Source: Torpedo marmorata
Lineage: Eukaryota
Direction of reading: 5' to 3'
Assembly (NCBI GenBank): GCA_977017645.1
Contig: OZ360257.1
Span: 15,314,001-15,378,000 of the forward strand
DNA length: 64,000 nt
In this document: piece by piece, positions 3,623-62,823 of the stretch
Numbering within the stretch: the first letter of the stretch is position 1
Layout: each line of letters starts with the position of its first letter
Translations under genes and position numbers: made by a program
Notes under the pieces: model-generated
Told to the model about the DNA's origin: nothing
Seen by the model: only the letters and a program-made list of their open reading frames with translations
Databases searched by the model: none

Positions 3623-3683
3623 ATGCCACGAATGGACGCCACGGAGATCTTCTATCCCAGTCTTGCAATTGTCGGCATTCCTG
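3623..3683 (+). CDS. gpr139-like: Family A GPCR copy 1, coding exon 1 (MPRMDATEIFYPSLAIVGIP+G)
   Basis: ATG at 3623 and a second in-frame ATG at 3632. The exon ends CCTG|GTAAGT (canonical donor at 3684, phase 1). It encodes the start of TM1 and joins exon 2 in frame as P-G-N-L-L. Confidence 0.88.
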
Positions 3684-5469: not shown

Positions 5470-6356
5470 GTAACCTGCTCTCGATTGTGGTCCTGTCCCG
5501 GGGAATGTGCGGCCTCTCCAAAGGAGTGACTCGTTACATGGTAACCATGGCCGTTGCAGACACAATGGTCTGTGTGTTTAACGTTACGGTGACAAACGTC
5601 TTCCGCTATCATTTTCCTCATTCATTCCTGGCACATACCTCCACTTGTCGTCTTATAGCCTTCATACAGATATTTAGCGTGCAATTCTCTGTCTGGGCCA
5701 CGGTATCGTTCACAGTGGACCGCTTCATTGCCATTTGTTGCCAGCATTTCAAAACAAAATATTGTACCGAAAGAAACGCCACGGTGGTTCTTACAACTGT
5801 GTGTCTGCTGAGTTTTTTGATGCACATTCCAGCTTATTTCCGGTATGAACCGCATTACATTGCGGGTGATGTCCAATGGGGCTGCCGTACTATAACACAA
5901 TATATTTATTCACCAGCATGGCAGACTTACAGATGGTTGTCTAAACTTATGGTACCACTGGTGCCGCTGCCGCTGATGTTGCTGTTGAATTCTCTCACCG
6001 TCCGACACATTTTACTTGTCAGCAGAGCTCGGAAGGCTTTGAAGCGCCGTGGGGACGGCGAGGTCTGTGATCCCGAGATGACGAACCGGAGAACGTCCAT
6101 TATATTGCTCTTCGCCATTTCTGGTAACTTCATTGCGTTGTGGACACCAGTTACGATAATTGACATATTTTACCAACTCACAACCTTTGCTGTCGACGCC
6201 CCGAAGTCACTGCTTCTGGCAATTAGAATCGCGATTCTGCTGATGTATTTGAGCTGCTGTACAAACACTTGTGTTTATGCATTGACACAGAGGAGATTCC
6301 GGGAGGAGGTGAAAAAAGTTGCAAATTATCCATTTATTGCCTTTGTATGGTTTTAA
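5470..6356 (+). CDS. gpr139-like: Family A GPCR copy 1, exon 2 (GPR139/GPR142-like class A 7TM; 315 aa spliced)
   Basis: Pyrimidine tract followed by TTACAG|GT at 5469/5470. Motifs: GN in TM1, MAVAD in TM2, C3.25, SVWATVSFTVDRFIAICC..KTKYCT, ECL2 WGC, NSLTVRHIL, FIALWTP in TM6, SCCTNTCVY and RFREE. The ORF-track start at 5424 is intronic. Confidence 0.93.
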
Positions 6357-14339: not shown

Positions 14340-15487
14340 ACTTTGCTGCCAATCGTCATTCTGTTCCATGTAATTTACGGCCTCTCAAAATGCATCACTC
14401 AGTGGTTGCTGGGAATGGCAGAAGCTGAATGAGTGGTTGTGAAACTGTATATGAATTGATTTTTTATGAGAGTAACGATCGGTATTTTCCACATTCAGAC
14501 TTCAATCAGACTTCTCTCTGGAGAGTTATTCTGACCATGTTATTTATTTCCATTGACGGTTCAATGTGACTAACTGTGGCTTTCATGTTCGATCGATTGT
14601 TTGCTATTTGTCACCAAACGTTACGAGCAAAATATTGCACAGAAAATAATTCATATGTAGCGAAAGCGCGGTGGAACTTTCCTCAACATTTGGAGAAAAC
14701 ACCATTTTATTTACTAACGTCGGGAAGTAATTGATAACGTTGAATTATCCTGCAATGTAATATCATGCTTTTACACCTTATGAATTTGAGCAGTTATTCT
14801 CTGGCAGTAAAAAGTCTTTAACGCATTTACTCTTTATGTCTTTATCTTGGCGCCACATTCCCTGACCATCAGCCGCATTATACCGGCTATCCGAGCGAGG
14901 AGCGAACTCCGAAGAAAGAACAACAATGGGAACCGCAGTGTCGCAGAGATGGGGAACCGCAGGAAACCGATAATGTTTCTGATGGTCATTTCCAGCACGT
15001 TTATTCTCTTCAGGATGGCTTTCATATGCGTGCAATTTACTGATACGCAGTTTTTGGAAGGAAGCTGCAATGATACCTTCACCATTGCGGGATTGTCGGG
15101 TTATATGCTGATGTTTTCGATTTCTTGCCCAATCCCATTGTTAACAATAGCGGTTAGAGCAACGCTATTTCAGCGCCAGCGACCCGGGTTCATTTCCGGC
15201 GCTACTGTAAGTAGTTTGTACATTCTCCCCATGTCAACGTGTGTTTCCTCCGTGCCCTCCGGTTTCCTCCCAAATAAAAAAAACGGAAGGAGGTTGAAAG
15301 TTAATTGTGGTATTTTGGTGGCATGTGCTCGTGGGCCGGAAGTGCCAGTTCCCGTTCCGTGTGCCACATTTAAAATTTAAAACACTTCATTGTTGCACTA
15401 TCCCAGAGAAAATTCAGAGAGGGTCTGAAGAATCTGGTAAAATGTCTAGTGACTCTTCTTACCAAGGCAAACAACTGCAAGGAATGA
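14340..15487 (+). pseudogene. Family B GPR139-like pseudogene (exon-2 equivalent) with stops, frameshifts and a SINE in TM7
   Basis: Hand translation: LLPIVILFHVIYGLSKCITQWLLGMA...YFPHS...SIDGSM*LTVAFMFDRLFAICHQTLRAKYCTE...LTISRI...EMGNRRKPI...GYMLMFSISC [SINE] ...ALSQRKFREGLKNLVK. TGA at 14567 replaces the TM3 Trp. Confidence 0.88.
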
Positions 15488-17391: not shown

Positions 17392-17452
17392 ATGCCACGA
17401 ATAGAAGCCACGGAGATCTTCTATCCCATTCTTGCAATTGTCGGCATTCCTG
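17392..17452 (+). CDS. gpr139-like: Family A GPCR copy 2, exon 1 (MPRIEATEIFYPILAIVGIP+G)
   Basis: ATG at 17392; the second ATG has become ATA. Donor GTAAGT at 17453. Confidence 0.86.
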
Positions 17453-19216: not shown

Positions 19217-20130
19217 GTAACCTGCTCTCGATTGTGGTCCTGTCCCGGGGAATGTGCGGCCTCTCCAAAGGAGTGATTCGTTACATGGTAACCATGGCAG
19301 TTGCAGACACAATGGTCTGTGTGTTTAACGTTACAGTGACATTCGTTTTCCGCCATCATTTTCAAGGTTCATTCTGGGCACACACCACCACTTGTCGCCT
19401 TTCAGACTTCATACAGAAATCCAGCGTGCAATTTTCTGTCTGGGCCACGGTATCGTTCACAGTGGACCGCTTCATTGCCATTTGTTGCCAGCAATTCAAA
19501 ACAAAATATTGTACCGAAAGAAACGCCACGGTGGTTCTTACAACTGTGGTTCTGCTGAGCTTTTTGATGCATATTCCAGCTTATTTCCGGTATGAACCCC
19601 TTTACATTGCGGGTGATGTCCAATGGGGCTGCCGTACTATAACACAATATATTTCTTCACCAGCATGGCAGACTTACAGATGGTTGTCTAAACTTATGGT
19701 ACCACTGGTGCCGCTGCCGCTGATGTTGCTATTGAATTCTCTCACCGTCCGACACATTTTACTTGTCAGCAGAGCTCGGAAGGCTTTGAAGCGCAGTGGG
19801 GACGGTCAGGTATTTGATCCCGAGATGACGAACCGGAGAACGTCCATTATATTGCTCTTCGCCATTTCTGGTACCTTCATAGCGTTGTGGACACCGGTTA
19901 CGATAATTGACCAATATTTCCATCTCACATTAAGCTTTGCGACCGACGCCCCGAAGTCACTGCTTCTGGCAATTAGATTCGCGATTCTGCTGATGTATTT
20001 GAGCTGCTCTACAAACACTTGTGTTTATGCAATGACACAGAGGAGATTCCGGGAGGAGGTGAAGAAGGTGGCAAAACATCCATGTATTGCCCTTGTACGG
20101 TTTTTAAAACCAATGACGCAGCCACAATGA
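19217..20130 (+). CDS. gpr139-like: Family A GPCR copy 2, exon 2 (324 aa spliced)
   Basis: Acceptor TTACAG ends at 19216. Uninterrupted 7TM frame to TGA at 20128-20130, with the same motifs as copy 1. Confidence 0.93.
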
Positions 20131-26530: not shown

Positions 26531-27680
26531 ATTTTGCTGCCAATCGTCATTCTGTTCCATGTAATTTACGGCCTCTCAAAATGCATCACTCAGTGGTTGC
26601 TGGGAATGGCAGAAGCTGACTGAGAAGTTGTGAAACTTTATATGAATTGATTTTATATGAGATTGACGATCGGTATTTTCCACATTCAGACTTCAATCAG
26701 ACTTCTCTCTGCAGAGTTATTCTGACCATGTTATTTATTTCCATTGACGGTTCAATGTGACTAACTGTGGCTTTCATGTTCGATCGATTTTTTGCTATTT
26801 GTCACCAAAATCTACGAGCAAAATATTGCACTGAAAATAATTCATCTGTAGCGAAAGCGCGGTGGAATTTTCCTCAACATTTGGAGAAAGCACCATTTTA
26901 TTCACTAACCTCGGGAAGTAATTGATAACGTTGAATTATCCTGCAATGTAATATCATGCTTTTACACCTTATGAATTTGAGCAGTTATTCTCTGGCAGTA
27001 AAAAGTCTTTAACTCATTTGCTCTTTATGTCTTTATCTTGTCGCCACATTCCCTGACCATCAGCCGCATTATACTGTCTATCCGAGCGAGGAGCAAACTC
27101 CGAAGAAGGAACAACAATGGGAACCGCAGTGTCGCAGAGATGGGGAACCGCAGGAAACCGATAATGTTGCTGCTGGTCATTTCCAGCACGTTTATTCTCT
27201 TCAGGATGGCTTTCATATGCGTGCAATTTACTGATAAGCAGTTTTTGGAAGGAAGCTGCAATGATACCTTCACCATTGCGGGATTGTTGGGTTATATGCT
27301 GATGTTTTCGAGTTCTTGCCCAATCCCATTGTTAACAATAGCGATCAGAGCAACGCTATTACAGCGCCAGCGACCCGGGTTCATTTCCGGCGCTACTGGA
27401 AGGAGCTTGTACATTCTCCCCATGTCCACGAGTGTTTCCTCCGTGCCCTCCGGTTTCCTCCCAAATAAAAAAAAAACGTAAGGAGGTTGAAAGTTAATTG
27501 TGATATTTTGGTGGGACGGGCTCGTGGGCCGGAAGTGCCTGTTCCCGTTCCCAACGCTAGATTTAAAATTTAAACCACTTCCTTGTTGCACTGTCCTAGA
27601 GAAAATTCAGAGAGGGTCTGAAGAACCTGGTAAAATGTCCAGTGACTCTTCTTACCAAGGCAAACAACTGCAAGGAATGA
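26531..27680 (+). pseudogene. Family B GPCR pseudogene copy
   Basis: Same sequence, same TM3 TGA and same SINE as 14340-15487. Confidence 0.87.
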
Positions 27681-29577
27681 CACCAGTTTATTTTCTCACA
27701 TAACAAAATGAATAACCTCGAACAAAGTAAACAAAAATCACTGTACGTGCATGACCACAAAGTAACCTTCAAATGAAAATTGGGTCTCTGGATGGTGCAC
27801 AGAACGTACAATATACAACACAGTGCAGAACCTTCAGTACACGACTTTGTGCCAATTTACCTGAACCCATTCCACAACAATATAATTTCCCAAGCGCACA
27901 CATATAACGCTGTATATTTCTTAAACCCTGTTCCTATCTTGAAGACATTAGAATGTCCCTATTGTAGCAATATCCGCCACCACAGGCAATGATTTCGAGG
28001 GACCAACCACTATCTGTTTAAAAACGTACCTTCCACATTTGCCTTAAAGTTTCCTTTACTCACCTTAATAAGCTGTCCTCCGGTATTAACTATTGTCGCC
28101 CCAGGAAACAGGTGCTGAATGTCCAAACTTTCTAAGCCCCTTCATATCCTTATATACCTCTATTTATTCACCTGTCATCCACAGAGAAAAGCTCTATCTC
28201 TGTCAACCTTGCTCCATATGACATGGTCTCCAATCCAGGCAATAGAATATCCTGATAAATATCTGCACCCTCTCTAATGCATCTACATACTTGCAGTAAC
28301 AAAGCGAACAGAACTGAACGCAATATTCCAAGTGTGGTCTCACCAGAGGTTTATGGGTCTGCAATATTTCCTCTCGGCTTTTATCCGACGAATGAAGTCC
28401 AACCCACCATACACCTTCTTGACCAGCGCGTCAACTAGCGCAGCAACCTTAAGGGGTGTACTAACATGGACCCCAAGATCTCTCAATTCCTCCAAACTGT
28501 TAGAAAGTCTGCCATTAACACGCACTCCGCCTTCGATTCGACCTCCAAAGTGCACTATACTTAACCGTATAGAACTCAATCTGCCACTTCTCTGCCCAAC
28601 TCAGCATCGTGTCTATATCCCGTTATAACCCACGACAGCCTTCTGCACTCCAGACAACACTGTGAACCGTTGGATGATTAGCAAATGCAAAGAAAATAGA
28701 GCACAGAAAGAAACTCTCTGATTGGACTTGATGCCTTCGAACCAACCCTCAGCGTTGATGCATTACCCCAAATACCACAGGCGCTCCAACCACTCCTCGG
28801 ATCTGTGTGGCGTTTGCAACAAAAATTAACCCAGCATTTCAAGCGGGACGGTTCACGTCACAGTTCGGCGGAATGCATTTACAGCGTCAGCGACGCGGGT
28901 TCAAATACAGCGCTGCCCTGGAAGGAGTTTTATTGCTTTCCCTCGTGAACTGCTCGGTTTCCCCGGGTACTCTGGTTCCTTCCCACTCACGAAATAAAGT
29001 GTGGGGTTGGCATGTTCAGTGGATGTCATTTGGCAGCACGGTCGTGTGTATAGTTTAAATAAAATTTCAGTCAAGCCAGCATGGCAGTTGACGAGTGAAA
29101 ACAAATCATCAGTTCAGACCGACTGATGAACCTGTGAAAGCTCATGGCAACAAAGTTATTTTCAGGTATATAATAATGAAAAGGAAAATATGTGTGATAA
29201 TGAGGATCATTGGGAACAAAGAACAGAGAGAATTGCGAACAAGTCACCCCAGGGACGAGGTTAAAGCGAAGCAAATGGAGATAGATGAAGGCGACACTCC
29301 AGTGTCACGGTTCCACGTCAGGTGATGCAGCGAGCTCGCACCTGAACCTTGTTTATTACGATAACACGTGTTAATTACTCTGGGCGGAGCGATCTCAGGA
29401 CATTAACTTAGAACGAACTGATACGGTTTGTTAAATCGAGTATGTGAAGGTGTTATGTAATTTAATGTCCCAGTAGAACGGCTGTCCTATAAATTAGGCT
29501 TCACAGTGAAACTCTTCATTTTCACATATTCATATGTGCTGTAGAGAAACCGCTCTTATCCTCAAAAGATACCACGA

Positions 29578-29629
29578 ATGGACGCCACGGAGATCTTCTA
29601 TCCCATTCTTGCAATTGTCGGCATTCCTG
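29578..29629 (+). CDS. gpr139-like: Family A GPCR copy 3, exon 1 (MDATEIFYPILAIVGIP+G)
   Basis: The first ATG is ATA (29569); the second ATG at 29578 is intact. Donor GTAAGT at 29630. Confidence 0.87.
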
Positions 29630-31414: not shown

Positions 31415-32328
31415 GTAACCTGCTCTCGATTGTGGTCCTGTCCCGGGGAATGTGCGGCCTCTCCAAAGGAGTGATTCGTTACATGGTAACCATGGCAGTT
31501 GCAGACACAATGGTCTGTGTGTTTAACGTTACAGTGTCATTCGTCTTCCGCCATTATTTTCAGGGTTCATTCTGGGCCCACACCACCACTTGTCGCCTTA
31601 CAGACTTCATACAGAAATCCAGCGTGCAATTCACTGTCTGGGCCACGGTATCGTTCACAGTGGACCGCTTCATTACCATTTGTTGCCAGCAATTCAAAAC
31701 AAAATATTGTACCGAAAGAAACGCCACGGTGGTTCTTACAACTGTGGGTCTGCTGACCTTTGTGATGCACATTCCAGCTTATTTCCGGTATGAACCCCAT
31801 TACATTGCGGGTGATGTCCAATGGGGCTGCCGAACTATAACACAATACATTTCTTCACCAGCATGGCAGACTTACAGATGGTTGTCTAAACTTATGGTAC
31901 CACTCGTGCCGCTGCCGCTGATGTTGCTGTTGAATTCTCTCACCATCCGACACATTTTACTTGTCAGCAGAGCTCGGAAGGCTTTGAAGCGCCGTGGGGA
32001 CGGTCAGGTATTTGATCCCGAGATGACGAACCGGAGAACGTCCATTATATTGCTCTTCGCCATTTCTGGTACCTTCATAGCGTTGTGGACACCGGTTACG
32101 ATAATTGACCAATATTTCCATCTCACCGCAAGTTTTTTGATCGACGCCCCGAAGTCACTGCTTCTGGCAATTAGAATCGCGATTCTGCTGATGTATTTGA
32201 GCTGCTGCACAAACACTTGTGTTTATGCGTTGACACAGAGTAGATTCCGGGATGAGGTGAAGAAGGTGGCAAAATATCCATTTATTGCCCTTGTACGGTT
32301 TTTAAAACCTATGACGCAGCCACAATGA
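31415..32328 (+). CDS. gpr139-like: Family A GPCR copy 3, exon 2 (321 aa spliced)
   Basis: Acceptor ends at 31414. Intact 7TM frame with DRF, WTP and NTCVY motifs. Confidence 0.93.
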
Positions 32329-39037: not shown

Positions 39038-40186
39038 ACTTTGCTGCCAATCGTTATTCTGTTCCATGTAATTTACGGCCTCTCAAAATGCATCTCTCAG
39101 TGGTTGCTGGGAAAGGCAGAAGCTGACTGAGAAGTTGTGAAACTGTATATGAATTGATTTTATATGAGATTAACGATCGGTATTTTCCACATTCAGACTT
39201 CAATCAGACTTCTCTCTGTAGAGTTATTCTGACCATGTTATTTATTTCCATTGACGATTCAATGTGACTAACTGTGGCTTTCATGTTCGATCGATTTTTT
39301 GCTATTTGTCACCAAAATCTACGAGCAAAATATTGCACTGAAAATAATTCATCTCTAGCGAAAGCGCGGTGGAATTTTCCTCAACATTTGGAGAAAGCAC
39401 CATTTTATTCACTAACCTCGGGAAGTAATTGATAACGTTGAATTATCCTGCAATGTAATATCATGCTTTTACACCTTATGAATTTGAGCAGTTATTCTCT
39501 GGCAGGAAAAAGTCTTTAACTCATTTGCTCTTTATGTCTTTATCTTGACGCCACATTCCCTGACCATCAGCCGCATTATACTGGCTAACCGAGCGAGGAG
39601 CAAACTCCGAAGAAGGAACAACAATGGGAACCGCAGTGTCACAGAGATGCGGAACCGCAGGAAACCGATAATGTTGCTGCTGGTCATTTCCAGCACGTTT
39701 ATTCTCTTCAGGATGGCTTTCATATGCGTGCAATTTACTGATAAGCAGTTTTTGGAAGGAAGCTGCAATGATACCTTCACCATTGCGGGATTGTCGGGTT
39801 ATATGCTGATGTTTTCGAATTTTTGCCCAATCCCATTGTTAACAATAGCGGTTAGAGCAACGCTATTTCAGCGCCAGCGACCCGGGTTCATTTCCGGCGC
39901 TACTGACAGGAGCTTATACGTTCTCCCCATGTCTACGTGTGTTTCCTCCGTGCCCTCCGGTTTCCTCCCAAATAAAAAAAAAAGTAAGGAGGTTGAAAGT
40001 TAATTGTGGCATTTTGGTGGCACGGGCTCGTGGGTCGGAAGTGCCTGTTCCCGTTCCGTATGCTACATTTAAAATTTAAACCACTTCATTGTTGCACTGT
40101 CCCCGAGAAAATTCAGAGAGGGTCTGAAGAATCTGTTGAAATTTCCAGTGACTCTTCTTACCAAGGCAAACAACAGCAAGGAATGA
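39038..40186 (+). pseudogene. Family B GPCR pseudogene copy
   Basis: Same lesions as the other family B copies. Confidence 0.87.
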
Positions 40187-40726
40187 CAGCAGTTTATTTT
40201 CTCAAATACCAAAATGAATAACCTCGAACAAAGTAAACAAAAATCACTGCACGTGCATGATCACAAAGGGACCTTCAAATGAAAATTGGGTCTCTGGAAG
40301 GTGCAAAGAACATAAAATATACAACACACTGCAGACCCTTCTGTACACGATGTTGTGCCAATTTACCTAAACTCATTCCACAATAATATAATTTCCCAAG
40401 CGCACGCCTGTAACGCGAAATCTTTCTTACACCCTGTTCCTATCTTGGAGACATTAGAATGTCCCTATTGTTGCAACCTCCACCACCACCACAGGCAATG
40501 ATTTCGAGGGACCAACCACTATCTGTATAAAAACGTACCTCCCACATTTGCCTTAAAGTTTCCTTTACGCACCTTAATAAACTGTCCTCCGGTATTAACT
40601 ATTGTCGTCTCAGGAAACAGGTGCTGAATGTCCAAACATCCTAAGCCCCCTCATAATATTATATACCTTTGTTTATTCACCTGTCATCCACAGAGAAAAG
40701 CTCTATATCTGTCACCCTTGCTCCAT

Positions 40727-42778
40727 TAATATAAATGGGATTAAAGTAGGTGCAGAAGAGCATAAAATTAGTCTGTTTGCAGATGATGTATTAATATATA
40801 TGACAAAATCTATTAAATCACTTCAACAATTAGATAAGATATTGAGGGATTATGGTGAGATATCTGGATATAAAATAAATTCGGATAAAAGTGAGATAAT
40901 GGCTCTATCTCAAGGAGACTATACTAAATGTAAAGAAGTTACAAAATTTAAATGGGCTAAAGAAACAATTAAATATTTGGGAGTTAAAGTAGATACAAAA
41001 TTAGAAAATTTATATAAATCAAATTATATACCTTTATTTCAGAAAATAAAGAAAGATTTGGATAATTGGAAAGATTTACCTATAACTTTAATGGGAAGAG
41101 TGAATTGTATTAAAATGAATATTTTTCCAAGAGTTCAATATCTTTTTCAATCTATACCTTATGGTATTCCTCAAAAATTTTTTAAAGATTTAAAAATTAT
41201 TATTAGAAAGTTTTTATGGAAAGGAAAATTGGCAAGGGTAAGTATAGATAAATTAACTTGGGAATATGAAATGGGTGGATTACAACTTCCTAATTTTCAA
41301 TATTATTATAAGGCAGCACAATTAAAATTTATAAATGAATTTTTTGATTTAACTAAAAATACGGCTTGGATTAATATAGAATTGAGTAATATAGGGGAAA
41401 GATATAAGGAAGATATTATTTATAAATGGAATTCCAAATTATTATTGATTAAAAAGAAAAAGTCACCGATTATTAAACACTTATTGGAAATTTGGAATCA
41501 GCTAGATAATGAAATAGGACGAAAAGGATCAATATCTTTAAATATGCCATTATATCAGAACCTATTGTTACCTTTTTCTATTGATAATCAATTTTTAAAA
41601 TTATGGTATCAAAAAGGAATTAAGAAGATTAAAGATTGTTTTGAGGCAGGAAGATTTGTTACTTTTTCTAGATTGAAGGAAAAATTTGGAATAATGGACA
41701 ATACAATTTTGGCTTATTATCAGGTTAAAGGATTTTTAGTTGAGAAATTAGGGATCAATTAATATCTCCTAGACAAGATGGGTTAGAGTTACTAATTACT
41801 AATGGAAATGTTAATAAATTTATATCACAAATGTATAAATTACTTCAGAGAAAGATGCCTAAAGTAGGACTACATAAATCTAGATTAAATTGGGAGTCAG
41901 ATTTAAATATTAGTATAGACGAACAACATTGGAAAGAACTATGTAAATTGAGTATGACTAAAATTATTAATGTTAGATATAGATTAGTACAATATAACTT
42001 TTTCCATCAATTATATATAACACCTAAAAAATTAAAGAAATTTAATCCGGCATTATCAGATATGTGTTTTAGGTGTAAAGATGAAATAGGTTCTTTTGTA
42101 CACTGTACATGGTCATGTTTAAAAATTCAAAATTTTTGCTCTAAAGTTAAGGATTTTTTAGATAGAATTTTTAATATTACGATTCCAATGGTCCCTATGA
42201 TATTTCTATTTGGAGATATTAAAAAAATTAATATTAGAAATAGATTGAATATGTATCAAATAGAATTTTTACGAATTGTGTTAGCGATTTCAAAAAAATG
42301 TATCGCTATTACTTGGAAATCAGATTTAGATTTGAATTTGGATAGATTACATGCAGAGTTACGCACGTGTATACCATTGGAAAAAATTACCTATAATCTA
42401 CGAGATAAATACCATTTCTTTTTGAAAATTTGGAGCCCATATATAAGAATTATGGGTATGAATTAATTCTCTAAAAGTTAGTAACGCTGACAAAAGTAAC
42501 CTCCAATATATAAGTAGAGTTAGCTTGTAATGGTTTTCTCCTCATACTAACTCTCATAACTTTATTATTCATTCTATTTTTTTTTTCTTTTAACTAATAC
42601 TTTTTTTTCATATTTTTCTTTTTCTTTTATTAGAATAGTGAGGGAGGGTTGGGGAGGGGAGGGTGGGAGGGGGGGAGGTAATATATCACATGTATTTTGA
42701 ATAATATACTATTTTTGATATATGTATTTTGTGATTTTAAAAATTAAATACAATTATTTAAAAAAAATAAAAAAAAAA
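40727..42778 (+). mobile_element. 5'-truncated L1-clade LINE (ORF2 3' half, 3'UTR, poly(A)) with an 11-bp TSD; present in one unit only
   Basis: RT core SLFADDVLIY and YLGV; C-terminal CFRC..GSFVHCTWSC zinc knuckle. One frameshift at ~41760. T-rich then G-rich 3'UTR and an A tail at 42760-42778. TSD CCTTGCTCCAT at 40716-40726 and 42779-42789. The empty site is seen in other units (e.g. ~16017). Confidence 0.95.
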
Positions 42779-44152: not shown

Positions 44153-44213
44153 ATGCCACGAATGGAAGCCACGGAGATCTTCTATCCCATTCTTGCAATT
44201 GTCGGCATTCCTG
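44153..44213 (+). CDS. gpr139-like: Family A unit-4 exon 1 (MPRMEATEIFYPILAIVGIP+G); its own exon 2 is deleted
   Basis: Both ATGs, the TATA box and the GTAAGT donor (44214) are intact. The downstream acceptor tract is broken at 45438. Confidence 0.75.
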
Positions 44214-46567
44214 GTAAGTGATTTTGCTGCGATCTCCGCCGAGTGTTTTCTGGTTGTCCGTATTCNNNNNNNNNNNNNNNNNNNNNNNNNNNNNNNNNNN
44301 NNNNNNNNNNNNNNNNNNNNNNNNNNNNNNNNNNNNNNNNNNNNNNNNNNNNNNNNNNNNNNNNNNNNNNNNNNNNNNNNNNNNNNNNNNNNNNNNNNNN
44401 NNNNNNNNNNNNNNNNNNNNNNNNNNNNNNNNNNNNNNNNNNNNNNNNNNNNNNNNNNNNNNNNNNNNNNNNNNNNNNNNNNNNNNNNNNNNNNNNNNNN
44501 NNNNNNNNNNNNNNNNTCGTCGCTCAGCCAGGATTTAAATAATCTTTTGACCTGAAGTTGTAGAAGTTAGACAATGTCCAGTCACTTCGATCATATGATA
44601 GATTCTGCAATCCAGGCAACACCTTTGCACACTCTCCACAGCATCCAGATATTTCCTATAAGGAGGCAACCATAACTGAACGCCATGATTTGAACTGTAT
44701 ATCTTCACGTGTCCGGGGAAAAGTGAAAAGGCGTTATTTTGCCTGCTATCCAGGCAAATCAAGCCACATAAAATACAGGAGGCAGCGCAAGGATAAAAAT
44801 AGAACAGGTGATAGTGTTACAATAAAGTACAGCATGACGTGTTAAAGACAGGAGTGCTGTTAGTCTATGTAAGTCTTTACCTTTTCCTCGTGAGAGGGCT
44901 ATTCAAGAGCCTGCCATCAGGAATGTAAGTGCCCTTGAATCTGGTTGGGTGCGTTTTTTTCGAAACTCGTGCTTCTTCTGCCCGGCGGCAGGGAGATGGA
45001 GAGACTGCGGTAGGGGTGGAACAGATTCGTGAACATGTACAGTGATTATTTATCCCGGAGATGGCGGGAGATATGAACGCAGTTTATGGTCGGGGGATTG
45101 ACTTATTGATAACACTGAATTGCGTTAATTTCTCTTCTTAGTTTCTTGTGACGCCGACCGTAGCAGTTTCCACACCAATCTGTGATGCACCCGCACCGGA
45201 CACTTTCTATTGTTCATCTGCACACAACGGACAGGGTCAACGGGGGCATGCCGAAATTCCTCAGCTTCTGAGGAAGTGAAAGCGTTGTTGCTCTTTCCAT
45301 TCCGTAGTGCCAATGTAATGTTGGCAACTGCATAATTTACAGGAACATACAAATGTTTCGATTAGTTTATTCCCAAAGATTCCTTTGATACAATTATGTT
45401 AAAGGTGTTGGCTTGTTTTTCTGGTGTTTCCTGGTTTTTCAAAACCAGGCTGCAATACCATCCTAGGAACGAAAATTATCCATATTTATTTGGAGGAATT
45501 GGGCATGTTTCGTCGTCTGATTTGTAACTTCCACCAAGTATAATGTGCAGCAAGATCATGAAGAAAATACCTTAAATCAAAGACAACGACAGGAACAGCA
45601 TTTGGAAAGGAAATTGAAAATAATTCCGAGGTCCAGGATGAATCCGCAGTTGGAGAGAAGGGGATTGATTAACGGGAGTTAGCATAGCTTTTTTGTTGGC
45701 AGATTATATACAACCAATTTTGTGTTTGTTTCGAGGAACAGCTCAATGTATCGATGAGAGTACTGCAGTTCATGAAGTTGACACGAATTTCGGTACGACC
45801 CTGTCAAATATCCAGATAATGGGCTTGCACGGTTAGCGTAGCGGTTAGTGCAACACATTTACAGGGCCAGTGTCACGGGTTCGAACCCGGCCCTGTCTGT
45901 GAGGAGTTTGTCCGTTCTCCATGTGTCTGCGTGGGTTTCCTCCGGGTGATCCTGTTTCCTCCCACCCTTTAAAACGTAGTTTATTGGGTTATCTGAGCGG
46001 CACATGCTGTGGGCCAGAAAGGCCTGTTACGGTGCTGTATGTCTAAATAATGCACTGGTCCACAGTTCAAGGGATCAAATGCAATTTTGAAATTCGGATT
46101 CAATGTTTGCCTCGTAACAGAAGGTAATAGTTCATGGTGGAAAATTGAATATAGAATATAAGAATCTTCAACGTAGTATAGGCAATTTGGGTCACAGTGT
46201 TATGCCAACCTGATAATCTCCGCTTCCAAGAATTCCGAGAATTTCCGTCCTTTATAACGATCATTTTCTCTCTGTTCCATGCACCAATATACTAGACTCT
46301 TAAAATATCCTAATGAACCTGCCTGTAAAACAGTTGCCAGCAGTGAATCCCATGCACCCATTACTCTGTGTGTGAAGATTGTGCCTCTAACCCTCCCCAT
46401 GTACTTACTCCGAAGCACTTTTAAACGCCCCCCCCCGCCTGAATGGAGGTTTTCCTTTGCGTGTGGAAACCTTTCTTCCACAGTGCCAAAACGTCAAACT
46501 ATTGGGGGGACTCATCGGATTGAACAGCGTGTGTGTGTGTGTTTCTGTATGTGTGTGTGTGTGTGTG

Positions 46568-46610
<43 letters not shown>

Positions 46611-48318
46611 CGGGTGGCAGCGATAGTGGAGTTTTCGGGACGATACATTTCCTCAGGGCCATGCTTAAAGGTCAGCTCAGCAAGGTCAGGTTTGACCCTC
46701 TTTTCAGGAGCGCTGGATCTGATCTCGGCTCCCATGACATCAACGTTATTAAAGTAAATGCGCACAAGTCTAAGTAGAGCAAACATGCAGTCTCATCGCG
46801 CTTATGCCACTCTCTTAAACCTTCCAGAGAAACGTGGTTCAATAATAATATAATTGCAGCAAATCACGAAGTGTCTGCTGTTCTGCCCTTCAGATCAGAG
46901 AACATTATTAATCTAAATCTCTAAAAAGGGTAATAGAGAGAATCCTGAGAATTACAGACAGGTGAGGCTGACGTCAGTGGTGTGAAAACAATTGGAGAGG
47001 ATTCTTAAGGACAGGATTTATGAGCATTAGGAGAAGTACAGTCGTCTGAGGGACATAAGCATGGTTTTGTGAGGGGATGGTCGTGCCTCATGAGCCTCAT
47101 TGCATTTTCTGAGGAGAAATCAAAACATAATGAGGAAAGTGTGACGGTAGACCAGGTACATATGGATTTGAGTGAGGCGTTTGACAAGGTTCCCCATGAA
47201 ATACTGGATCAGAAAGGCATCAGGCATTCTATCCACGGAATCTTGGCTGTGTGAATAAAAAATTGGCTTGCCTGTAGAAAGAAGAGGACGGAACAGAAAG
47301 TATCCTGTCGGAACATCAGTGGCTAGTGGAGTTCCGCAGGGATGTTTTCTTCAACCCTTGCTCTTTGTGATTTTTGTAAATGACCTAGATGAAGAGCGGA
47401 AGCGTGGGTCAGTAGGTGTGCAGATGATATAATGGTTGGAGGAGCTGCAGTTAGTGTTGAAATCTGTCGTAGATTGCAATGCAGAGATGGGCGCAAAAGT
47501 GGCAGATCGAGTTCAATCCGGATAAGTTTGTGAAGCATTTTGGAAGGTCAAACCTTGCTGAATACAGCATTAATGGTCGGATACTTAAGAGTGTGGAGGA
47601 AGAGAGGGACCTTGAAGTTAAAATCCATACATCTCTCAATGTTTCCGCGCAGGTTAATAGGATAGTTAAGAAGGCCTATGGGATGCTGGGTGTCAATAAT
47701 AGGGGGATTGCGTTCAATAGTATAGAGGTCATGTTGCAAATCAACACACCTCTGGTGAGACCATACTTATAGTATTTTATTCAGTTATGGCCACATCGTT
47801 ATGGGAAGGATGTGGAAACTGTGGAGAGGGTGCGGAGGAGATTTACCAGGGTATTGCCTGGATTGGAAAATGTCTTATGAGGCAAGGTTAGTAGAGCAAG
47901 GACTTTTCTATTTGGAGCGAAGAAGGATGAGAGGTGACTTCATAAAAGTCTACAAGAATATATACAATAGATAGGGTAGACAGCAAGCGCTTTTTCGCAG
48001 GGAGGGAATAGCAAACACCAGGGGACGTATGCACAAAGTGAAGTGAGGAAGGTTGAGGGGAGATATCAGAGGTAAATTATTCACACAGTAATGGAGGTGC
48101 CGGCAATGCCTTGCCAGGTTGGTGGTGGGGGCTGAAGCATTTTGGGTATTTAAGAGACTCGTAGACAGGCACATGGATGAACGAAAATTAGAGGATTAAG
48201 TGGTTGAAAGGTTTCAGTATTTTCTTGGTAGGAATATACAGGTCGGCACAACATTGAAGGCCGAATAGCCTGTACTGTGCTGTCGTGTTCCATGTTCTAT
48301 GTTCTATGTTTTGAAACT

Positions 48319-48882
48319 ACTTTACTGCCAATCGTCATTCTGTTCCATGTAATTTACTGCCTCTCAAAATGCATCACTCAGTGGTTGCTGGGAATGGCAG
48401 AAGCTGACTGAGAAGTTGTGAAACTGCACATGAATTGATTGTATATGAGATTAAAGATTGGTATTTTCCACATTCAGACTTCAATCCGACTTCTCTCTGT
48501 AGAGTTATTCTGACGATTTTATTTATTTCCATTGACTGTTCAATGTGACTAACTGTGTCTTTCATGTTCGATCGATTTTTTGCTATTTGTCACCAAACGC
48601 TCCGAGCAAAATATTGCACTGAAAATAATTCATCTGTAGCGAAAGCGCGGTGGAATTTTCCTCAACATTTGGGAAAAAACACCATTTTATTTATTAACCT
48701 CGGGAAGTAATTGATAACGTTGAATTATCCTGCAATGTAATATCATGCTTTTACACCTTATGAATTTGAGCAGTTATTCTCTCGCAGGAAACAGTCTTTA
48801 ACTCATTTGCTCTTTATGTCTTTATCTTGGCGCCACATTCCCTGACCATCAGCCGCATTATACTGGCTAACCGAGCGAGGAG
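48319..48882 (+). pseudogene. Family B GPCR pseudogene copy, 3' part deleted
   Basis: Matches family B up to CCGAGCGAGGAG, then jumps into the minus-strand CR1 (GCCAACCCACC). Confidence 0.83.
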
Positions 48883-50708
48883 GCCAACCCACCACACACC
48901 TTCTTGACCAGCGCGTACACTAGCGCAGCAACCTTGAGGGGTGTATTAACATGGACCCCAAGATCTCTCAGTTCCTCCAAACTGTTAGAACTTCTGCCAT
49001 TAACACGCACTCCGCCTTCGATTCGACCTCCAAAGTGCACTACACTTAACCGTATAGAACTCAATCTGCCAATTCTCTGCCCAACTCCGCATCCTTTCTA
49101 TATCCCGTTATAACCCACGACAGCCTTCTGCACTCCCGACAACACTGTGAACCGTTGTATCATTAGCAAATGCAAAGAAAATAGAGCACAGAAAGAAATT
49201 CTCTGATTGGACTTGATGCCTTCGAACCAACCCTCAGCGTTGATGCATTACCCCAAATACCACAGGCGATCCAAATACTCCTCGGATCTGTGTGGCGTTT
49301 GCAACAAAAATTAACTCAGCATTTCAAGCGGGACGGTTCACGTCACAGTTCAGCGCAACACATTCACAGCGTCAGCGACGCGGGTTCAAATACAGCTCTG
49401 CCCTGGAAGGAGTTTTATTGCTCTCCCTCGTGAACTGCTCGGTTTCCCCGGGTACTCTGGTTTCTTCCCACTCACGAAAAAAAGTATGGGTTTGGCATGT
49501 TCATTGGATGTAATTTGGCAGCACGGGCACTTGCGGAGCTGCATGACGTGGTCAGTAAACAGGCCCACCCCGAGACAATTCCAGTCACAGTCGTTGACTT
49601 TAATCAGGCCTGTCTTAAGAGAGCCCTGCGCAAGTATCACCAGCACGTAACCTGCTGTACCAGAGGCACCAGCTCATTTGAACATTGCGACAACAACATA
49701 AGGAATGCCTACGTTCTTTCATGATAGAGCAGGTTGGTGTTTGCTGTCCACCCCATCTAAACCCCTCATGATGTTGTCTACCCCCAATAATTCACCTCTT
49801 CCCCTTCATCGCTGCAGAGAAAAGCCCCAGCTCTGTCAACCTTCCTTCATATGATAGGTTCTGCAATCCAGGCAACACCTTTGCACACTCTCCAGAGCAT
49901 CCATATATTTCCTATAATGAGGCAACCATAACTGAACGCAACGATTTGAACTGTTTATCGTCACGTATCCGGGGAAAAGTGAAAAGGCGTTATTTTGCCT
50001 GCTATCCAGGTAAATCAAGCCACATAAAATACAGCAGGCAGTGCAAGGATAAAAATAGTACAGATGATAGTGTTACAATAAAGTACAGCATGACGTGTTA
50101 AAGACAGGAGTGCTGTTAAGCTATGCAAGTCATTACCTTTTACTCTTGATAGGTCTATTCAACAGCCTGCCAGCAGGAATGTAAGTGACCTTGAATCTGG
50201 TTGGGTGCGTTTCTTCCAAACTCGTGCTTCTTCTGCCCGGCGGCTGGGAGAAGGAGAGACTGCGGGAGGAGTGGAACAGATTCTTTAACATGTATAGTGA
50301 TTATTTATCTGGGAGACGGCGGGAGATATGAACGAAGTCGATGGACGGGGGATTGGATTATTGATAACACTGAATTGCGTTCATTACTCTCCGTGGTTTC
50401 GTAAGACTCCGAGCTCAGCAGTTTCCACACCAATCTGTGATGCACCCGTACCGGACACTTTCTATTGTTCATCTGCACACAACGGACAGGGTCAACGGGG
50501 GCATGCCGAAATTCCTCAGCTTCTGAGGAAGTGAAAGCGTTGCTGCGCTTCCCATTCCGTAGTGCCCATGTAATGTTGGCAACTATATAATTTACAGGAA
50601 CATACAAATGTTTCGATTAGGTTATTCCCAAAGATTCCATTGTAACAATTATGTTAAAGGTGTTGGCTTGATTTTCTGGTAGTTTCCTGGTTTTCCATCT
50701 TGTTACAG

Positions 50709-51622
50709 GTAACCTGCTCTCGATTGTGGTCCTGTCCCGGGGAATGTACGGCCTCTCCAAAGGAGTGATTCGTTACATGGTAACCATGGCAGTTGCAGAC
50801 ACAATGGTCTGTGTGTTTAACGTTACAGTGATATTCGTCTTCGGCTATCATTTTCCTCATTCATTCCTGGCACATACCTCCACTTGTCGTCTTACAGACT
50901 TCATACAGAAATCCAGCGTGCAATTCTCTGTCTGGGCCACGGTATCGTTCACAGTCGACCGCTTCATTGCCATTTGTTGCCAGCAATTCAAAACAAAATA
51001 TTGTACCGAAAGAAACGCCACGGTAGTTCTTACGACTGTGTGTGTGCTGAGCTTTTTGATGAACATTCCAGTTTATTTCCGGTATGAACCCCATTACATT
51101 GCGGGTGATGTCAAATGGGGCTGCAGTACTATAACACGATATATTTCTTCACCAGCATGGCATACTTACAGATGGTTGTCTAAACCTATGGTACCACTGG
51201 TGCCCCTGCCGCTGATGTTGCTGTTGAATTCTCTCACCGTCCGACACATTTTACTTGTCAGCAGAGCTCGGAGGGCTTTGAAGAGCCGTGGGGACGGTCA
51301 AGTGTTTGATACCGAGATGACGAACCGGAGAACGTCCATTATATTGCTCTTCGCCATTTCTTGTACCTTCATAGCGTTGTGGACACCGGTTACGATAATT
51401 GACCAATACTTCCATCTCACATTAAGCTTTTCGATCGACGCCCCGAAGTCACTGCTTCTGGCAATTAGAATCACGATTCTGCTGATGTATTTGAGCTGCT
51501 GTACAAACACTTGTGTTTATGCAATGACACAGAGGAGATTCCGGGATGAGGTGAAGAAGGTGGCAAAATATCCATTTATTGCCCTTGTACGGTTTTTAAA
51601 ACCTATGACGCAGCAACAATGA
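50709..51622 (+). CDS. gpr139-like: Family A unit-5 exon 2 (intact 914 nt); its own promoter and exon 1 are deleted, probable partner of exon 1 at 44153
   Basis: Acceptor TTACAG ends at 50708. No stop or frameshift before TGA at 51620-51622. Confidence 0.85.
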
Positions 51623-59728: not shown

Positions 59729-60872
59729 ATTTTGCTGCCAATCGTCATTCTGTTCCATGTAATTTACGGCCTCTCAAAATGCATCACTCAGTGGTTGTTG
59801 GGAATGGCAGAAGCTGACTGAGAAGTTGTGAAACTGTTTTTGAATTGATATGAGATTAACGATCGGTATTTTCCACATTCACACTTCAATCAGACTTCTC
59901 TCTGTAGAGTTATTCTGACCATGTTATGTCTTTCCATTGACGGTTCAATGTGACTAACTGTGGCTTTCATGTTCGATCGATTTTATGCTATTTGTCACCA
60001 AACGCTACCAGCAAAATATTGCACTGAAAATAATTCATCTGTAGCGAAAGCGCGGTGGAATTTTCCTCAACATTTGGGATAAAACACCATTTTATTTACT
60101 AACGTCGGGAAGTAATTGATAACGTTGAATTATCCTGCAATGTAATATCATGCTTTTACACCTTATGAATTTGAGCAGTTATTCTCTGGCAGTAAAAAGT
60201 CTTTAACTCATTTACTCTTTATGTCTTTATCTTGGCGCCACATTCCCTGACCATCAGCCGCATTATACTGGCTATCCGAGCGATGAGCAAACTCCGAAGA
60301 AAGAACACCAATGGGAACCGCAGTGTCGCAGAGATGGGGAACCGCAGGAAACCGATAATGTTGTTGCTGGTCATTTCCAGCACGTTTATTCTCTTCAGGA
60401 TGGCTTTCATATGCGTGCAATTTACTGTTGCGCATATTTTTGAAGGAAGCTGCAATGATTCCTTCACCATTGCGGGATTGTCGGGTTATATGCTGAAGTT
60501 TTCGATTTCTTGCCCAATCCCATTGTTAACAACAGCGGTTAGAGTAACGCTATTACAGCGCCAGCGACCCGGGTTCATTTCCGGCGCTACTGGAAGGAGC
60601 TTGTACGTTCTCCCCATGTCTACGAGTGTTTCCTCCGTGCCCTCCGGTTTCCTCCCAAATAAAAAAAAACGTAAGGAGGTTGAAAGTTAATTGTGGTATT
60701 TTGGTGGGACGGTCTCGTGGGCCGGAAGTGCCTGTTCCCGTTCCAATGCTAGATTTAAAATTTAAACCACTTCCTTGTTGCACTGTCCCAGAGAAAATTC
60801 AGAGAGGGTCTGAAGAATCTGGTAAAATGTCCAGTGACTCTTCTTACCAAGGCAAACAACTGCAAGGAAAGA
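59729..60872 (+). pseudogene. Family B GPCR pseudogene copy
   Basis: Same lesions as the other family B copies. Confidence 0.87.
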
Positions 60873-62771
60873 CACCAGTTTATTTTCTCACATAACAAAA
60901 TGAATAACCTCGAACAAAGTAAACAAAAATCACTGTACGTGCATGATCACAAAGTAACCTTCAAATGAAAATTGGGTCTCTGGAAGGTGCACAGAACATA
61001 AAATATACAACACACTGCAGTCCCTTCAGTACACGACGTGGTGCCAATTTACGTAAACCCATTCCACAACAATATAATTTCCCAAGCGCACACCTATAAC
61101 GCTATATCTTTCTTACACCCTGTTCCTATCGTGGAGACATTGGAATGTCCCTATTGTAGCAGCCTCCACCACCACCACAGGCAATGATTTCGAGGGACCA
61201 ATCACTATCTGTTTAAAAACTTACCTTCCACATTTGCCTTAAAGTTTCCTTTACTCACCTTAATAAGCTGTCCTCCGGTATTAACTATTGTCGCCCCAGG
61301 AATCAGGTGCAGAATGTCCAAACTTTCGAAGCCGCCTCATAACCTTATCTACCTTTGTTTATTCACCTGTCATCCACAGAGAAATTCTCTATCTCTGTCA
61401 ACCTTGCTCCACATGACTTGGTCTCCAATCCAGGCAATAGAATATCCTGATAAATATCTGCACCCTCTCCAATGCATCTACATACTTGCAGAAACAAAGC
61501 GACCAGAACTGAACGTAATATTCCAAGTGTGGTCTCACCAGAGTTTTATGGGTCTGCAACATTTCCTCTCGGATTTTATCCGACGAATGAAGGCCAACCC
61601 ACCACACACCTTCTTGACTAGCGCGTCAACGTGCGCACCAACCTTGAGGGTGTATTAACATGGACCCCAAGATCTCTCAGTTCCTCCAAACTGTTAGAAC
61701 TTCTGCCATTAACACGCACTTCGCCTTCGATTCGACCTCCAAAGTGCACTACACTTAACCGTATAGAACTCAATCTGCCACTTCTCTGCCCAACTCCGCA
61801 TCCTGTCTATATCGCGTTGTAACCCACGGCAGCCTTCTGCACTTCCAACAACACTGTGAACCGTTGTATCATTAGCAAATGCAAAGAAAATAGAGCACAG
61901 AAAGAAATTCTCTGATTGGACTTGATGCCTTCGAACCAACCCTCAGCGTTGATGCATTACCCCAAATACCACAGGCGATCCAAACACTCCTCGGATCTGT
62001 GTGGCGTTTGCAACAAAAATTAACCCAGCATTTCAAGCGGGATGGTTCACGTCACAGTTCGGCGGAATGCATTTACAGCGTCAGCGACGAGGGTTCAAAT
62101 ACAGCGCTGCCCTGGAAGGAGTTTTATTGCTTTCCCTCGTGAACTGCTCGGTTTCCCCGGGTACTCTGGGTTCTTCCCACTCACGAAAAAAAGTATGGGG
62201 TTGGCATGTTCAGTGGATGCCATTTGGCAGCAGGGGCGTCGGTATAGTTTAAATAAAAGTTCAGTCAAGCCAGCATGGCAGTTGACGAGTGAAAACAAAT
62301 CATCAGGTCAGACCGACTGATGAACTTCTGAAAACTCATGGGAACAAAGTTATTTTCAGGTGTATAATAATGAAAAGGAAAATATGTGTGATAATCAGGA
62401 TCATTGGGAACAAATAACAGAGAGAATTGCGAACAGGTACCCCCAGGGACGAAGTTAAAGCGAAGCAAATGGCGATAGATGAAGGCGACACTCCAGTGTC
62501 ACGGTTCCACGTCAGGTGATGCAGCGAGCTCGCACCTGAACCTTGTTTATTACGATAACTGGTGTTAGTTACTCTGGGCGGAGCGATCTCAGGTCATTAA
62601 CTTAGAATGAACTGATACTGTTTGTTAAATCGAGTATGTGGAGGTGTTATGTAATTTAATGTCCCAGTAGAACGGCTGCCCTATAAATTAGGCTTCACAG
62701 AGAAACTCTTCGTTTTCACATATTCATATGTGCTGTGGAGAAACCGCTCTTATCCTCAAAAGATACCACGA

Positions 62772-62823
62772 ATGGACGCCACGGAGATCTTCTATCCCAT
62801 TCTTGCAATTGTCGGCATTCCTG
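62772..62823 (+). CDS. gpr139-like: Family A copy 6, exon 1 (MDATEIFYPILAIVGIP+G); exon 2 would lie beyond the window
   Basis: ATG at 62772 (upstream ATG is ATA). Donor GTAAGT at 62824. Intron sequence continues to the window end. Confidence 0.8.

What the first reader, a model, noticed from the sequence alone, without database searches (positions are those of the whole stretch)
5589..6200. Paralog differences cluster on predicted ligand-pocket positions
Seen: most of exon 2 is near-identical, but two blocks vary. ECL1/TM3: copy 1 NVFRYHFPHSFLAHTSTCRLIAFIQIF, copy 2 FVFRHHFQGSFWAHTTTCRLSDFIQKS, copy 3 ..YFQGSFWAHTTTCRLTDFIQKS, copy 5 FGYHFPHSFLAHTSTCRLTDFIQKS. TM6/ECL3: DIFYQLT-TFAVD, DQYFHLTLSFATD, DQYFHLTASFLID, DQYFHLTLSFSID, including a one-codon indel. 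Counting from C3.25 (which puts R of DRF at 3.50), changes hit 3.28, 3.29 (A/D), 3.33 (I/K), 3.34 and 6.56-6.59. Known: 3.28, 3.29, 3.33 and 6.58 line class A orthosteric pockets. Inference: a hydrophobic versus Asp+Lys pocket switch suggests different ligands, e.g. a zwitterion for the D/K type.
Basis: partly seen in the sequence, partly recalled or inferred. Interest (0 to 1): 0.72.

Follow-up and report, generated by a model that had tools for sequence, protein, structure and literature searches.

The report
Ray receptor array reshuffling pocket rim
These genes are four of more than 130 side-by-side copies of an orphan cell-surface receptor in a ray-like fish; the copies swap old sequence patches at the predicted binding-pocket rim while the pocket's predicted net positive charge stays almost constant, so they likely form a set of sensors for related molecules, probably negatively charged, rather than the two-state switch first proposed.

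Summary
The quoted residues, the indel and the numbering are correct. The four copies belong to a 2.6-Mb array of at least 132 GPR139-like receptor genes (118 of 130 examined intact), nearest to electric-ray proteins; they are not GPR139 itself. Across 103 distinct genes, extracellular codons change about twice as fast as the rest. Pocket-facing outer-helix codons have dN/dS about 1.0 against 0.43 for their neighbours (permutation p about 0.01). Single-copy amphibian relatives show the reverse. The two blocks are old patches shuffled by gene conversion: synonymous change is raised 3-4-fold too, and block dN/dS stays below 1. Positive selection here is modest (1 of 39 recombining null simulations reached the observed statistic); 3.29 is the firmest site. 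The Asp/Lys zwitterion switch is not supported: 23 TM3 combinations exist, D and K uncouple, and all copies share a charged pocket. Net pocket charge stays +2 to +4 in 118 of 118 copies (post hoc p about 0.004; not repeated in a second subfamily). That second subfamily shows strong positive selection (0 of 38 nulls). The scan has noted this family before, in this array and in other genomes. Ligand and tissue are untested.

The parts
3623..3683 (+). Copy 1 exon 1 (20 codons, start of TM1; phase-1 intron inside G1.49)
5470..6356 (+). Copy 1 exon 2 (rest of the 7TM; spliced protein 315 aa, 9 residues shorter than the neighbours)
5592..5675 (+). Variable block 1 in copy 1: top of TM2, ECL1 and top of TM3 (2.61 to 3.34); 3.29 at 5658, 3.33 at 5670
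6162..6197 (+). Variable block 2 in copy 1: 6.55 to ECL3, with the one-codon deletion
5931..5945 (+). R5.39 and K5.43, basic pocket residues shared by all four window copies (with D6.55 and R7.36)
17392..17452 (+). Copy 2 exon 1
19217..20130 (+). Copy 2 exon 2 (D3.29/K3.33 type)
29569..29629 (+). Copy 3 exon 1 (first ATG changed to ATA; in-frame ATG at codon 4)
31415..32328 (+). Copy 3 exon 2 (D3.29/K3.33 type)
44153..44213 (+). Copy 4 exon 1; its exon 2 is deleted
50709..51622 (+). Copy 5 exon 2, lacking its own exon 1: a copy-1-type ECL1 patch inside a copy-2-type gene
62763..62823 (+). Copy 6 exon 1 (exon 2 lies just past the window end)
14381..15179 (+). Frameshifted relic of another GPR139-like gene carried in each repeat unit (also 1186-1503, 26534-27319, 39038-39724, 48339-48883, 59732-60513); used as a neutral divergence baseline

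Best explanation
These are copies in a tandem array of more than 130 GPR139-like class A receptor genes whose extracellular and predicted pocket-rim codons change about twice as fast as the rest, and whose two variable blocks are old patches likely swapped between copies by gene conversion; selection likely keeps the patches distinct, so the copies would sense different but related molecules, probably negatively charged. Shown: the array, the rate pattern, recombination, the greater age of the blocks and the narrow net charge. Inferred: conversion homogenises the signalling scaffold while divergent rim modules (TM2/ECL1, top of TM3, TM6/ECL3) resist it and recombine into new combinations. Also inferred: D3.29/K3.33, one helical turn apart, is one of several charge-neutral swaps (R2.61 for R2.65; K/R3.33 with loss of K5.43; K3.32 with D6.59; loss of D6.55 with E3.32 or with loss of R2.65) that move a basic group inside a pocket that stays cationic. 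Ligand, tissue and expression are untested.
For: Array: 132 matches in 2.6 Mb of one contig; 118 of 130 examined have an intact exon 2. Extracellular dN 0.90 against 0.45 intracellular and 0.39 core; circular shift 0 of 96 for the rate ratio and 2 of 96 for the dN/dS ratio. Pocket-facing outer-TM dN/dS 0.92-1.05 against 0.41-0.43, site permutation p 0.007-0.015 on three tree settings. In 20 single-copy amphibian relatives the same positions are the most conserved (0.042 against 0.179, p 0.0006), while the array reverses this (0.244 against 0.148, p 0.03). PHI-type test p 0.0005; mosaic module combinations. Block pS 0.21-0.28 against 0.067 in the rest of the exon, 0.06-0.13 in the intron and 0.03-0.06 in the co-duplicated relic, the divergence-peak signature described in PMC3924837. 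M1a-M2a 2dlnL 20-37, M8a-M8 25-36; 1 of 39 recombining nulls reach the 4-segment value; 3.29 P(dN>dS) 0.98-0.99. Net pocket charge +2 to +4 in 118 of 118 copies, 88 at +3; sign-flip p 0.004 with two control regions at 0.30 and 0.42; matched-partition p 0.00025. A K3.33 that binds a ligand carboxylate is documented in the endothelin ETB receptor (PMC10533325).
Against: Whole blocks have dN/dS 0.77 and 0.58, below 1; block 2 equals the gene background of 0.52. Pocket-facing dN/dS is about 1, which relaxed constraint could also give. The 14 GPR139 ligand-contact equivalents give only 0.60-0.74. The site-model signal shrinks when double-nucleotide changes are allowed (M1a-M2a 7.4 at rate 0.05 and 0.9 at 0.12, both above the best-fitting rate near 0.015). 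One null in 39 exceeded it. In the second subfamily the pocket-versus-neighbour contrast (1.00 against 0.90, p 0.42) and the charge constancy (p 0.16) were not repeated. The charge test is post hoc and rests on about 26 charge changes on one tree; same-branch pairing alone gives p 0.045-0.16; dropping 3.33 or 5.43 raises p to 0.14 or 0.09.
Confidence: 0.58

Rival explanations
1. Relaxed constraint plus gene conversion, without selection for difference: redundant copies tolerate change on the outward half, and old patches persist and move by drift.
For: Pocket-facing dN/dS about 1, extracellular 0.75 and blocks below 1; raised dS in the blocks; a recombining null can reach the observed LRT (1 of 39); 12 of 130 copies are broken.
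Against: Pocket-facing sites change faster than their neighbours on the same helices, opposite to single-copy relatives. Net charge is held while single charges move. 3.29 changes at least 11 times on the tree, with no synonymous variant among its 5 codons. The sister subfamily shows unambiguous positive selection at partly the same sites.
Confidence: 0.25
2. One reading: two receptor types, a hydrophobic A/I pocket and a D/K pocket that binds a zwitterion such as an amino acid.
For: 21 of 26 D3.29 copies carry K3.33. The equivalent GPR139 F109(3x33) is needed for Trp/Phe activation, and E105(3x29) was a docking contact (PMC5430874). The four named sites pooled give dN/dS 1.7-4.0 (chosen after seeing the data).
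Against: 23 TM3 combinations; D without K in 5 copies, K/R without D in 20. Both types share R5.39, K5.43, D6.55 and R7.36 and the same net charge. D3.29 and K3.33 lie one turn apart on a continuous predicted helix, so they can neutralise each other. Of the GPR139 residues needed for amino-acid activation only W6.48 is kept.
Confidence: 0.07
3. Surface escape: the extracellular face diversifies to evade a pathogen, parasite or toxin that binds the receptor, not to sample ligands.
For: Many fast sites are in loops (ECL1 50, ECL2 128 and 131, ECL3 238-241); in the second subfamily selection is extracellular but not pocket-specific.
Against: In this array pocket-facing helix sites exceed their neighbours and pocket charge is balanced. 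Escape alone does not explain hundreds of intact copies.
Confidence: 0.1

Closest known systems
Human GPR139 (PDB 7VUG/7VUI/9M42; PMC8807744, PMC5430874) and its paralog GPR142
   Same: Top PDB hit by sequence (E 4.7e-13) and by fold; two-exon gene (PMC7318219); W6.48 kept; databases give this name to the relatives.
   Different: Only 23-25% identity, against 70% between human and zebrafish GPR139 (PMC7318219). F3.33, H5x43, R6.51 and N7x38 are not kept. C3.25 and an ECL2 cysteine are present where GPR139 has D at 3.25. The pocket is basic, whereas GPR139 has acidic residues at 3.29 and 3.32. Hundreds of copies instead of one.
Unnamed GPR139-like vertebrate orphans: a single-copy amphibian/sturgeon gene (P0209, P0286-P0305) and a coelacanth/teleost gene (P0223, P0229); possibly the GPR210A/B sets of PMC6504862
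   Same: Best hits to the family profile outside sharks and rays; the same family of fold and motifs.
   Different: 25-31% identity; their pocket is nearly invariant, whereas the ray array diversifies it. Identity with GPR210A/B was not verified; that survey held no cartilaginous fish.
Paralogs diverging under gene conversion (red/green opsins; PMC3924837) and expanded chemoreceptor repertoires (OR, TAAR, V2R, nematode Srw; recalled)
   Same: Divergence peaks at specificity sites inside a homogenised gene; tandem birth-and-death array; FMRFamide-receptor/Srw-like neighbours in the Atlas search.
   Different: More than 100 copies exchanging several modules instead of a gene pair; no sensory expression or ligand shown; not a member of the OR, TAAR, V1R or V2R families by Pfam.
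Endothelin ETB receptor cationic pocket (PMC10533325)
   Same: K3.33 with basic residues on TM5 and TM6 binds the ligand's carboxylate; the array has K/R3.33 in 41 of 118 copies, with R5.39 and K5.43.
   Different: An analogy only: not among the 60 PDB sequence hits shown; 6.55 is acidic here and R7.36 is basic.

Membership tests
Class A (rhodopsin-like) GPCR | 7tm_1 match above the cut-off and a seven-helix fold | tested here: met
   PF00001 76 bits against a cut-off of 30.5; model pLDDT 87.5, TM about 0.7 to class A structures
Class A (rhodopsin-like) GPCR | D/E-R-Y/F, W6.48-x-P6.50 and C3.25-C45.50 anchors | tested here: met
   DRF, WTP, C at columns 59 and 138; NPxxY reads NTCVY
GPR139 ortholog | High identity to human GPR139 (70-96% across vertebrates) | tested here: not met
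   23-25% against 70% for zebrafish (PMC7318219)
GPR139 ortholog | Activation residues F3x33, H5x43, W6x48, R6x51, N7x38 | tested here: not met
   Only W6.48 kept; others V/I/K/R, S/T, V, I/L
GPR139 ortholog | Groups with true GPR139 in a tree, or shares its synteny | not tested
   No GPR139 sequence was held as a stored protein; the tree lacks GPR139 and GPR142
GPR139 ortholog | Activation by L-Trp/L-Phe | not testable with these tools
   Needs an assay
GPR210A/B (PMC6504862) | Orthology to the named coelacanth/gar/teleost Ensembl sets | tested here: inconclusive
   Coelacanth and teleost relatives found, but Ensembl ids could not be matched
Diversifying chemoreceptor repertoire | Many intact clustered paralogs with pseudogene turnover | tested here: met
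   At least 132 in one array and 123 further matches elsewhere; 12 of 130 broken
Diversifying chemoreceptor repertoire | Pocket-facing sites more variable than neighbouring helix sites | tested here: met
   Met in this array; not repeated in the second subfamily
Diversifying chemoreceptor repertoire | Positive selection robust to recombination | tested here: inconclusive
   This array: 1 of 39 nulls reach the observed value. Second subfamily: 0 of 38
Diversifying chemoreceptor repertoire | Expression in sensory cells and response to outside chemicals | not testable with these tools
   Needs tissue RNA and assays

The most novel reading that the evidence does not exclude
Sharks and rays have an undescribed chemosensory receptor family, hundreds of genes strong, derived from the GPR139/FMRFamide-receptor group. 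This electric-ray array is a subfamily tuned to anionic compounds: gene conversion recombines pocket-rim modules like cassettes, and selection keeps the pocket at about +3 while moving the basic residues among positions 2.61, 2.65, 3.32, 3.33 and 5.43.
Probability: 0.27. Interest if true: 0.82.

Novelty: new variant of a known kind. Interest (0 to 1): 0.48.

Why it matters
Databases label these genes GPR139, which hides a large separate family in cartilaginous fishes; my literature searches found no description of it. If the copies are sensors, the chemoreceptor inventory of sharks and rays is missing a major part. The array is also a natural mutagenesis panel: 51 pocket variants on a scaffold 78-100% identical. 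The charge rule gives a concrete prediction for deorphaning (try carboxylates, sulfates and peptides with a free acidic end first). The mode of evolution, conversion with protected divergence peaks, is a known kind.

Tried and rejected
Zwitterion switch: rejected (see rivals). Treating the blocks as positively selected units: rejected, dN/dS 0.77 and 0.58. Taking site-model chi-square p values at face value: rejected, since recombining nulls gave LRT up to 37 on a single tree and 23 on four trees. The tree-placement charge null (p 0.0005-0.0007) is inflated by same-site reversals, so I rely on the sign-flip and matched-partition tests. Replication of the pocket contrast and of charge constancy in a second subfamily failed. 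RNA runs: no RNA holder was listed, which is no evidence either way. Mapping onto 3D: the model was built, but its coordinates are not delivered to scripts, so pocket assignment rests on helix numbering. A tree with true GPR139/GPR142 could not be built. Literature: searches found no paper on this expansion; the catshark sensory genome paper has no word starting with 'GPR' in its main text (passages only). No supplements were opened; gene lists in the supplements of shark genome papers could mention the family.

Full report
Observation. The window holds 12-14 kb tandem units, each with a two-exon class A GPCR gene: exon 1 at 3623, 17392, 29569, 44153 and 62763, and exon 2 at 5470, 19217, 31415 and 50709. 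The numbering agrees with the alignment to human GPR139 and that receptor's published numbers (PMC5430874, first fifth read). Among the four copies 58 of 292 columns vary: 12 of 27 in block 1, 8 of 13 in block 2 and 38 of 252 elsewhere. A scan statistic on four copies alone gives p 0.09-0.11.

Context. The own genome has 133 scored matches (of 8298 candidates, so a lower bound), 132 of them in 2.6 Mb of contig C80. I analysed 130. Two more were fetched late and not used, and the C311 match was not fetched. 118 have an exon 2 open for at least 290 codons, 12 are broken and were dropped, and 103 coding sequences are distinct. The nearest outside proteins are from the electric ray Narcine (up to 80%), then sharks. 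A distant query gave 123 further matches on other contigs. Outside cartilaginous fishes the profile finds an amphibian/sturgeon gene, apparently single-copy, and a coelacanth/teleost gene, then weaker, mostly unnamed receptors; the Atlas adds FMRFamide-receptor/Srw-like clusters. The genes are not GPR139: identity is 23-25% against 70% for zebrafish GPR139 (PMC7318219, passages), and of the activation residues only W6.48 is kept (PMC8807744, first third read).

Recombination and the age of the blocks. A PHI-type test gives p 0.0005. Copy 5 carries a copy-1-like TM2/ECL1 patch (7% from copy 1, 22-26% from copies 2 and 3) in a gene whose intron is 6-7% from copies 2 and 3. In the 42-member subgroup the three modules occur in 11 combinations. 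Among the four copies pS is 0.21 and 0.28 in the blocks against 0.067 elsewhere; pN is 0.15 and 0.20 against 0.038. A co-duplicated pseudogene relic differs by only 3-6% between units. The blocks are therefore older than the units. Likelihood estimates on 103 genes agree: synonymous rate 1.3 and 1.8 times the mean, dN/dS 0.77 and 0.58 against 0.52 for the gene.

Selection. I wrote the codon models myself; they are approximate, with branch lengths fixed up to a scale and a coarse grid for kappa. M1a-M2a gave 37.5 on one tree and 20.4 on four segment trees; M8a-M8 gave 35.8 and 25.2; the selected class has dN/dS 2.0-2.8 and holds 5-10% of sites. Nulls without positive selection, simulated on ten segment trees, reached the four-segment value (21.1 in the same pipeline) in 1 of 39 runs, so the evidence is borderline. 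With site-wise synonymous rates, 3.29 (0.98-0.99), ECL3 238, ECL2 131 and 2.61 exceed 0.9 in all three settings. 3.33 (0.53-0.73) and 6.58 (0.09-0.35) do not. Extracellular dN is 0.90 against 0.45 intracellular and 0.39 core. The more telling test is inside the outer half of the helices. 38 generic pocket-facing positions (list recalled from class A literature, fixed before the test but after I had seen the column table) have dN/dS 0.92-1.05, against 0.41-0.43 for the other 53 (permutation p 0.007-0.015). In 20 amphibian relatives the same 38 positions are the most conserved (0.042 against 0.179), which validates the list and shows a reversal in the array (0.244 against 0.148). Variation is strongest at the rim; the 14 GPR139 contact equivalents give 0.60-0.74, and 3.37, 4.61, 5.35, 5.38 and 6.48 are invariant.

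The Asp/Lys idea. The array shows 23 combinations at five TM3 sites. D3.29 goes with K3.33 in 21 copies and with I in 5; basic 3.33 occurs without D in 20. All 41 copies with basic 3.33 have either D3.29 (21) or have lost K5.43 (20). Other swaps are R2.61 for R2.65 (51 copies), K3.32 with D6.59 (3), and loss of D6.55 with loss of R2.65 (7) or gain of E3.32 (5). Net charge over the 38 positions is +2 (22 copies), +3 (88) or +4 (8). The observed sign pattern has the lowest variance of 256 possible (p 0.004), control regions give 0.30 and 0.42, and a matched-partition null gives 0.00025. This was noticed after the fact, rests on few events, and weakens when 3.33 or 5.43 is dropped. Of 41 close outside relatives 38 are +1 to +4, while 68 distant ones range from -4 to +2; Narcine P0002 has R3.33 with K5.43 and no D, an exception to the pairing. 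I infer that D3.29 offsets K3.33 one turn away and that the pocket stays cationic in every copy. An anionic ligand class is the simplest reading, by analogy with ETB K182(3.33) (PMC10533325, passages). Folding stability of buried charges is an alternative reason.

Second subfamily. From the 123 matches I held 88 (matches with stops left out), kept the 70 that are over 80% identical to L141, and used 65 distinct genes. M1a-M2a is 184 on segment trees (168 in the quick pipeline) with dN/dS about 6 at 9% of sites; 0 of 38 recombining nulls exceed 37. Extracellular dN/dS is 1.45 against 0.57, and site rates correlate with this array (rho 0.26; 2.40, 2.65, 3.29, ECL2 128 and ECL3 241 are shared top sites). 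The pocket-versus-neighbour contrast (p 0.42) and charge constancy (p 0.16) were not repeated there.

Known and new. A GPCR array diversifying its ligand side under conversion is a known kind of evolution. The family seems undescribed in the library searched. The nearest named sets may be GPR210A/B (PMC6504862, passages), not verified. Other papers opened, as passages only: PMC12294341, PMC12208981, PMC11979771; the rest were seen as search listings. Earlier scan notes report the family in several genomes and this same array.

Verdict. Observation partly confirmed; pocket diversification supported; two-state zwitterion switch not supported; ligand and tissue untested. Interest 0.48.

Noticed in passing
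window 44153-51622: Copy 4 keeps only exon 1 and copy 5 only exon 2; splicing across 6.5 kb would give a full 324-aa receptor. Already noted by the scan (e1-9385024).
   Followed up: partly
window 14381-15179 and five other units: Each repeat unit carries a frameshifted relic of a different GPR139-like subfamily about 2.4 kb upstream of exon 1.
   Followed up: partly
window 40599-42466: LINE-type reverse transcriptase fragment (RVT_1), AT-rich, inserted in unit 4.
   Followed up: no
window 5529-5531 (codon 2.40); L141-L210: Position 2.40, at the inner end of TM2, toggles I/T in this array and T/S in the second subfamily and ranks among the fastest sites in both, although it is intracellular.
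   Followed up: no
window 17392-17403, 29569-29580, 62763-62774: Two in-frame ATGs (codons 1 and 4): copy 2 has lost the second, copies 3 and 6 the first, none has lost both.
   Followed up: no
L141-L210 (contigs C39, C45, C83-C135 and others): A young subfamily (92-100% DNA identity) is spread over dozens of contigs rather than one array, shows strong positive selection and has lost P6.50.
   Followed up: partly
P0209, P0286-P0305: A conserved GPR139-like orphan, apparently single-copy, in frogs, salamanders, a caecilian and a sturgeon, with a nearly invariant pocket also at net +3 by different residues; no amniote hit among the 25 listed.
   Followed up: partly
G000:C80 15265032, 15319472, 16035539: Copy 1 has two copies 99-100% identical, and larger blocks recur along the array: very recent duplications or assembly haplotigs; only distinct sequences were used in the rate tests.
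   Followed up: no
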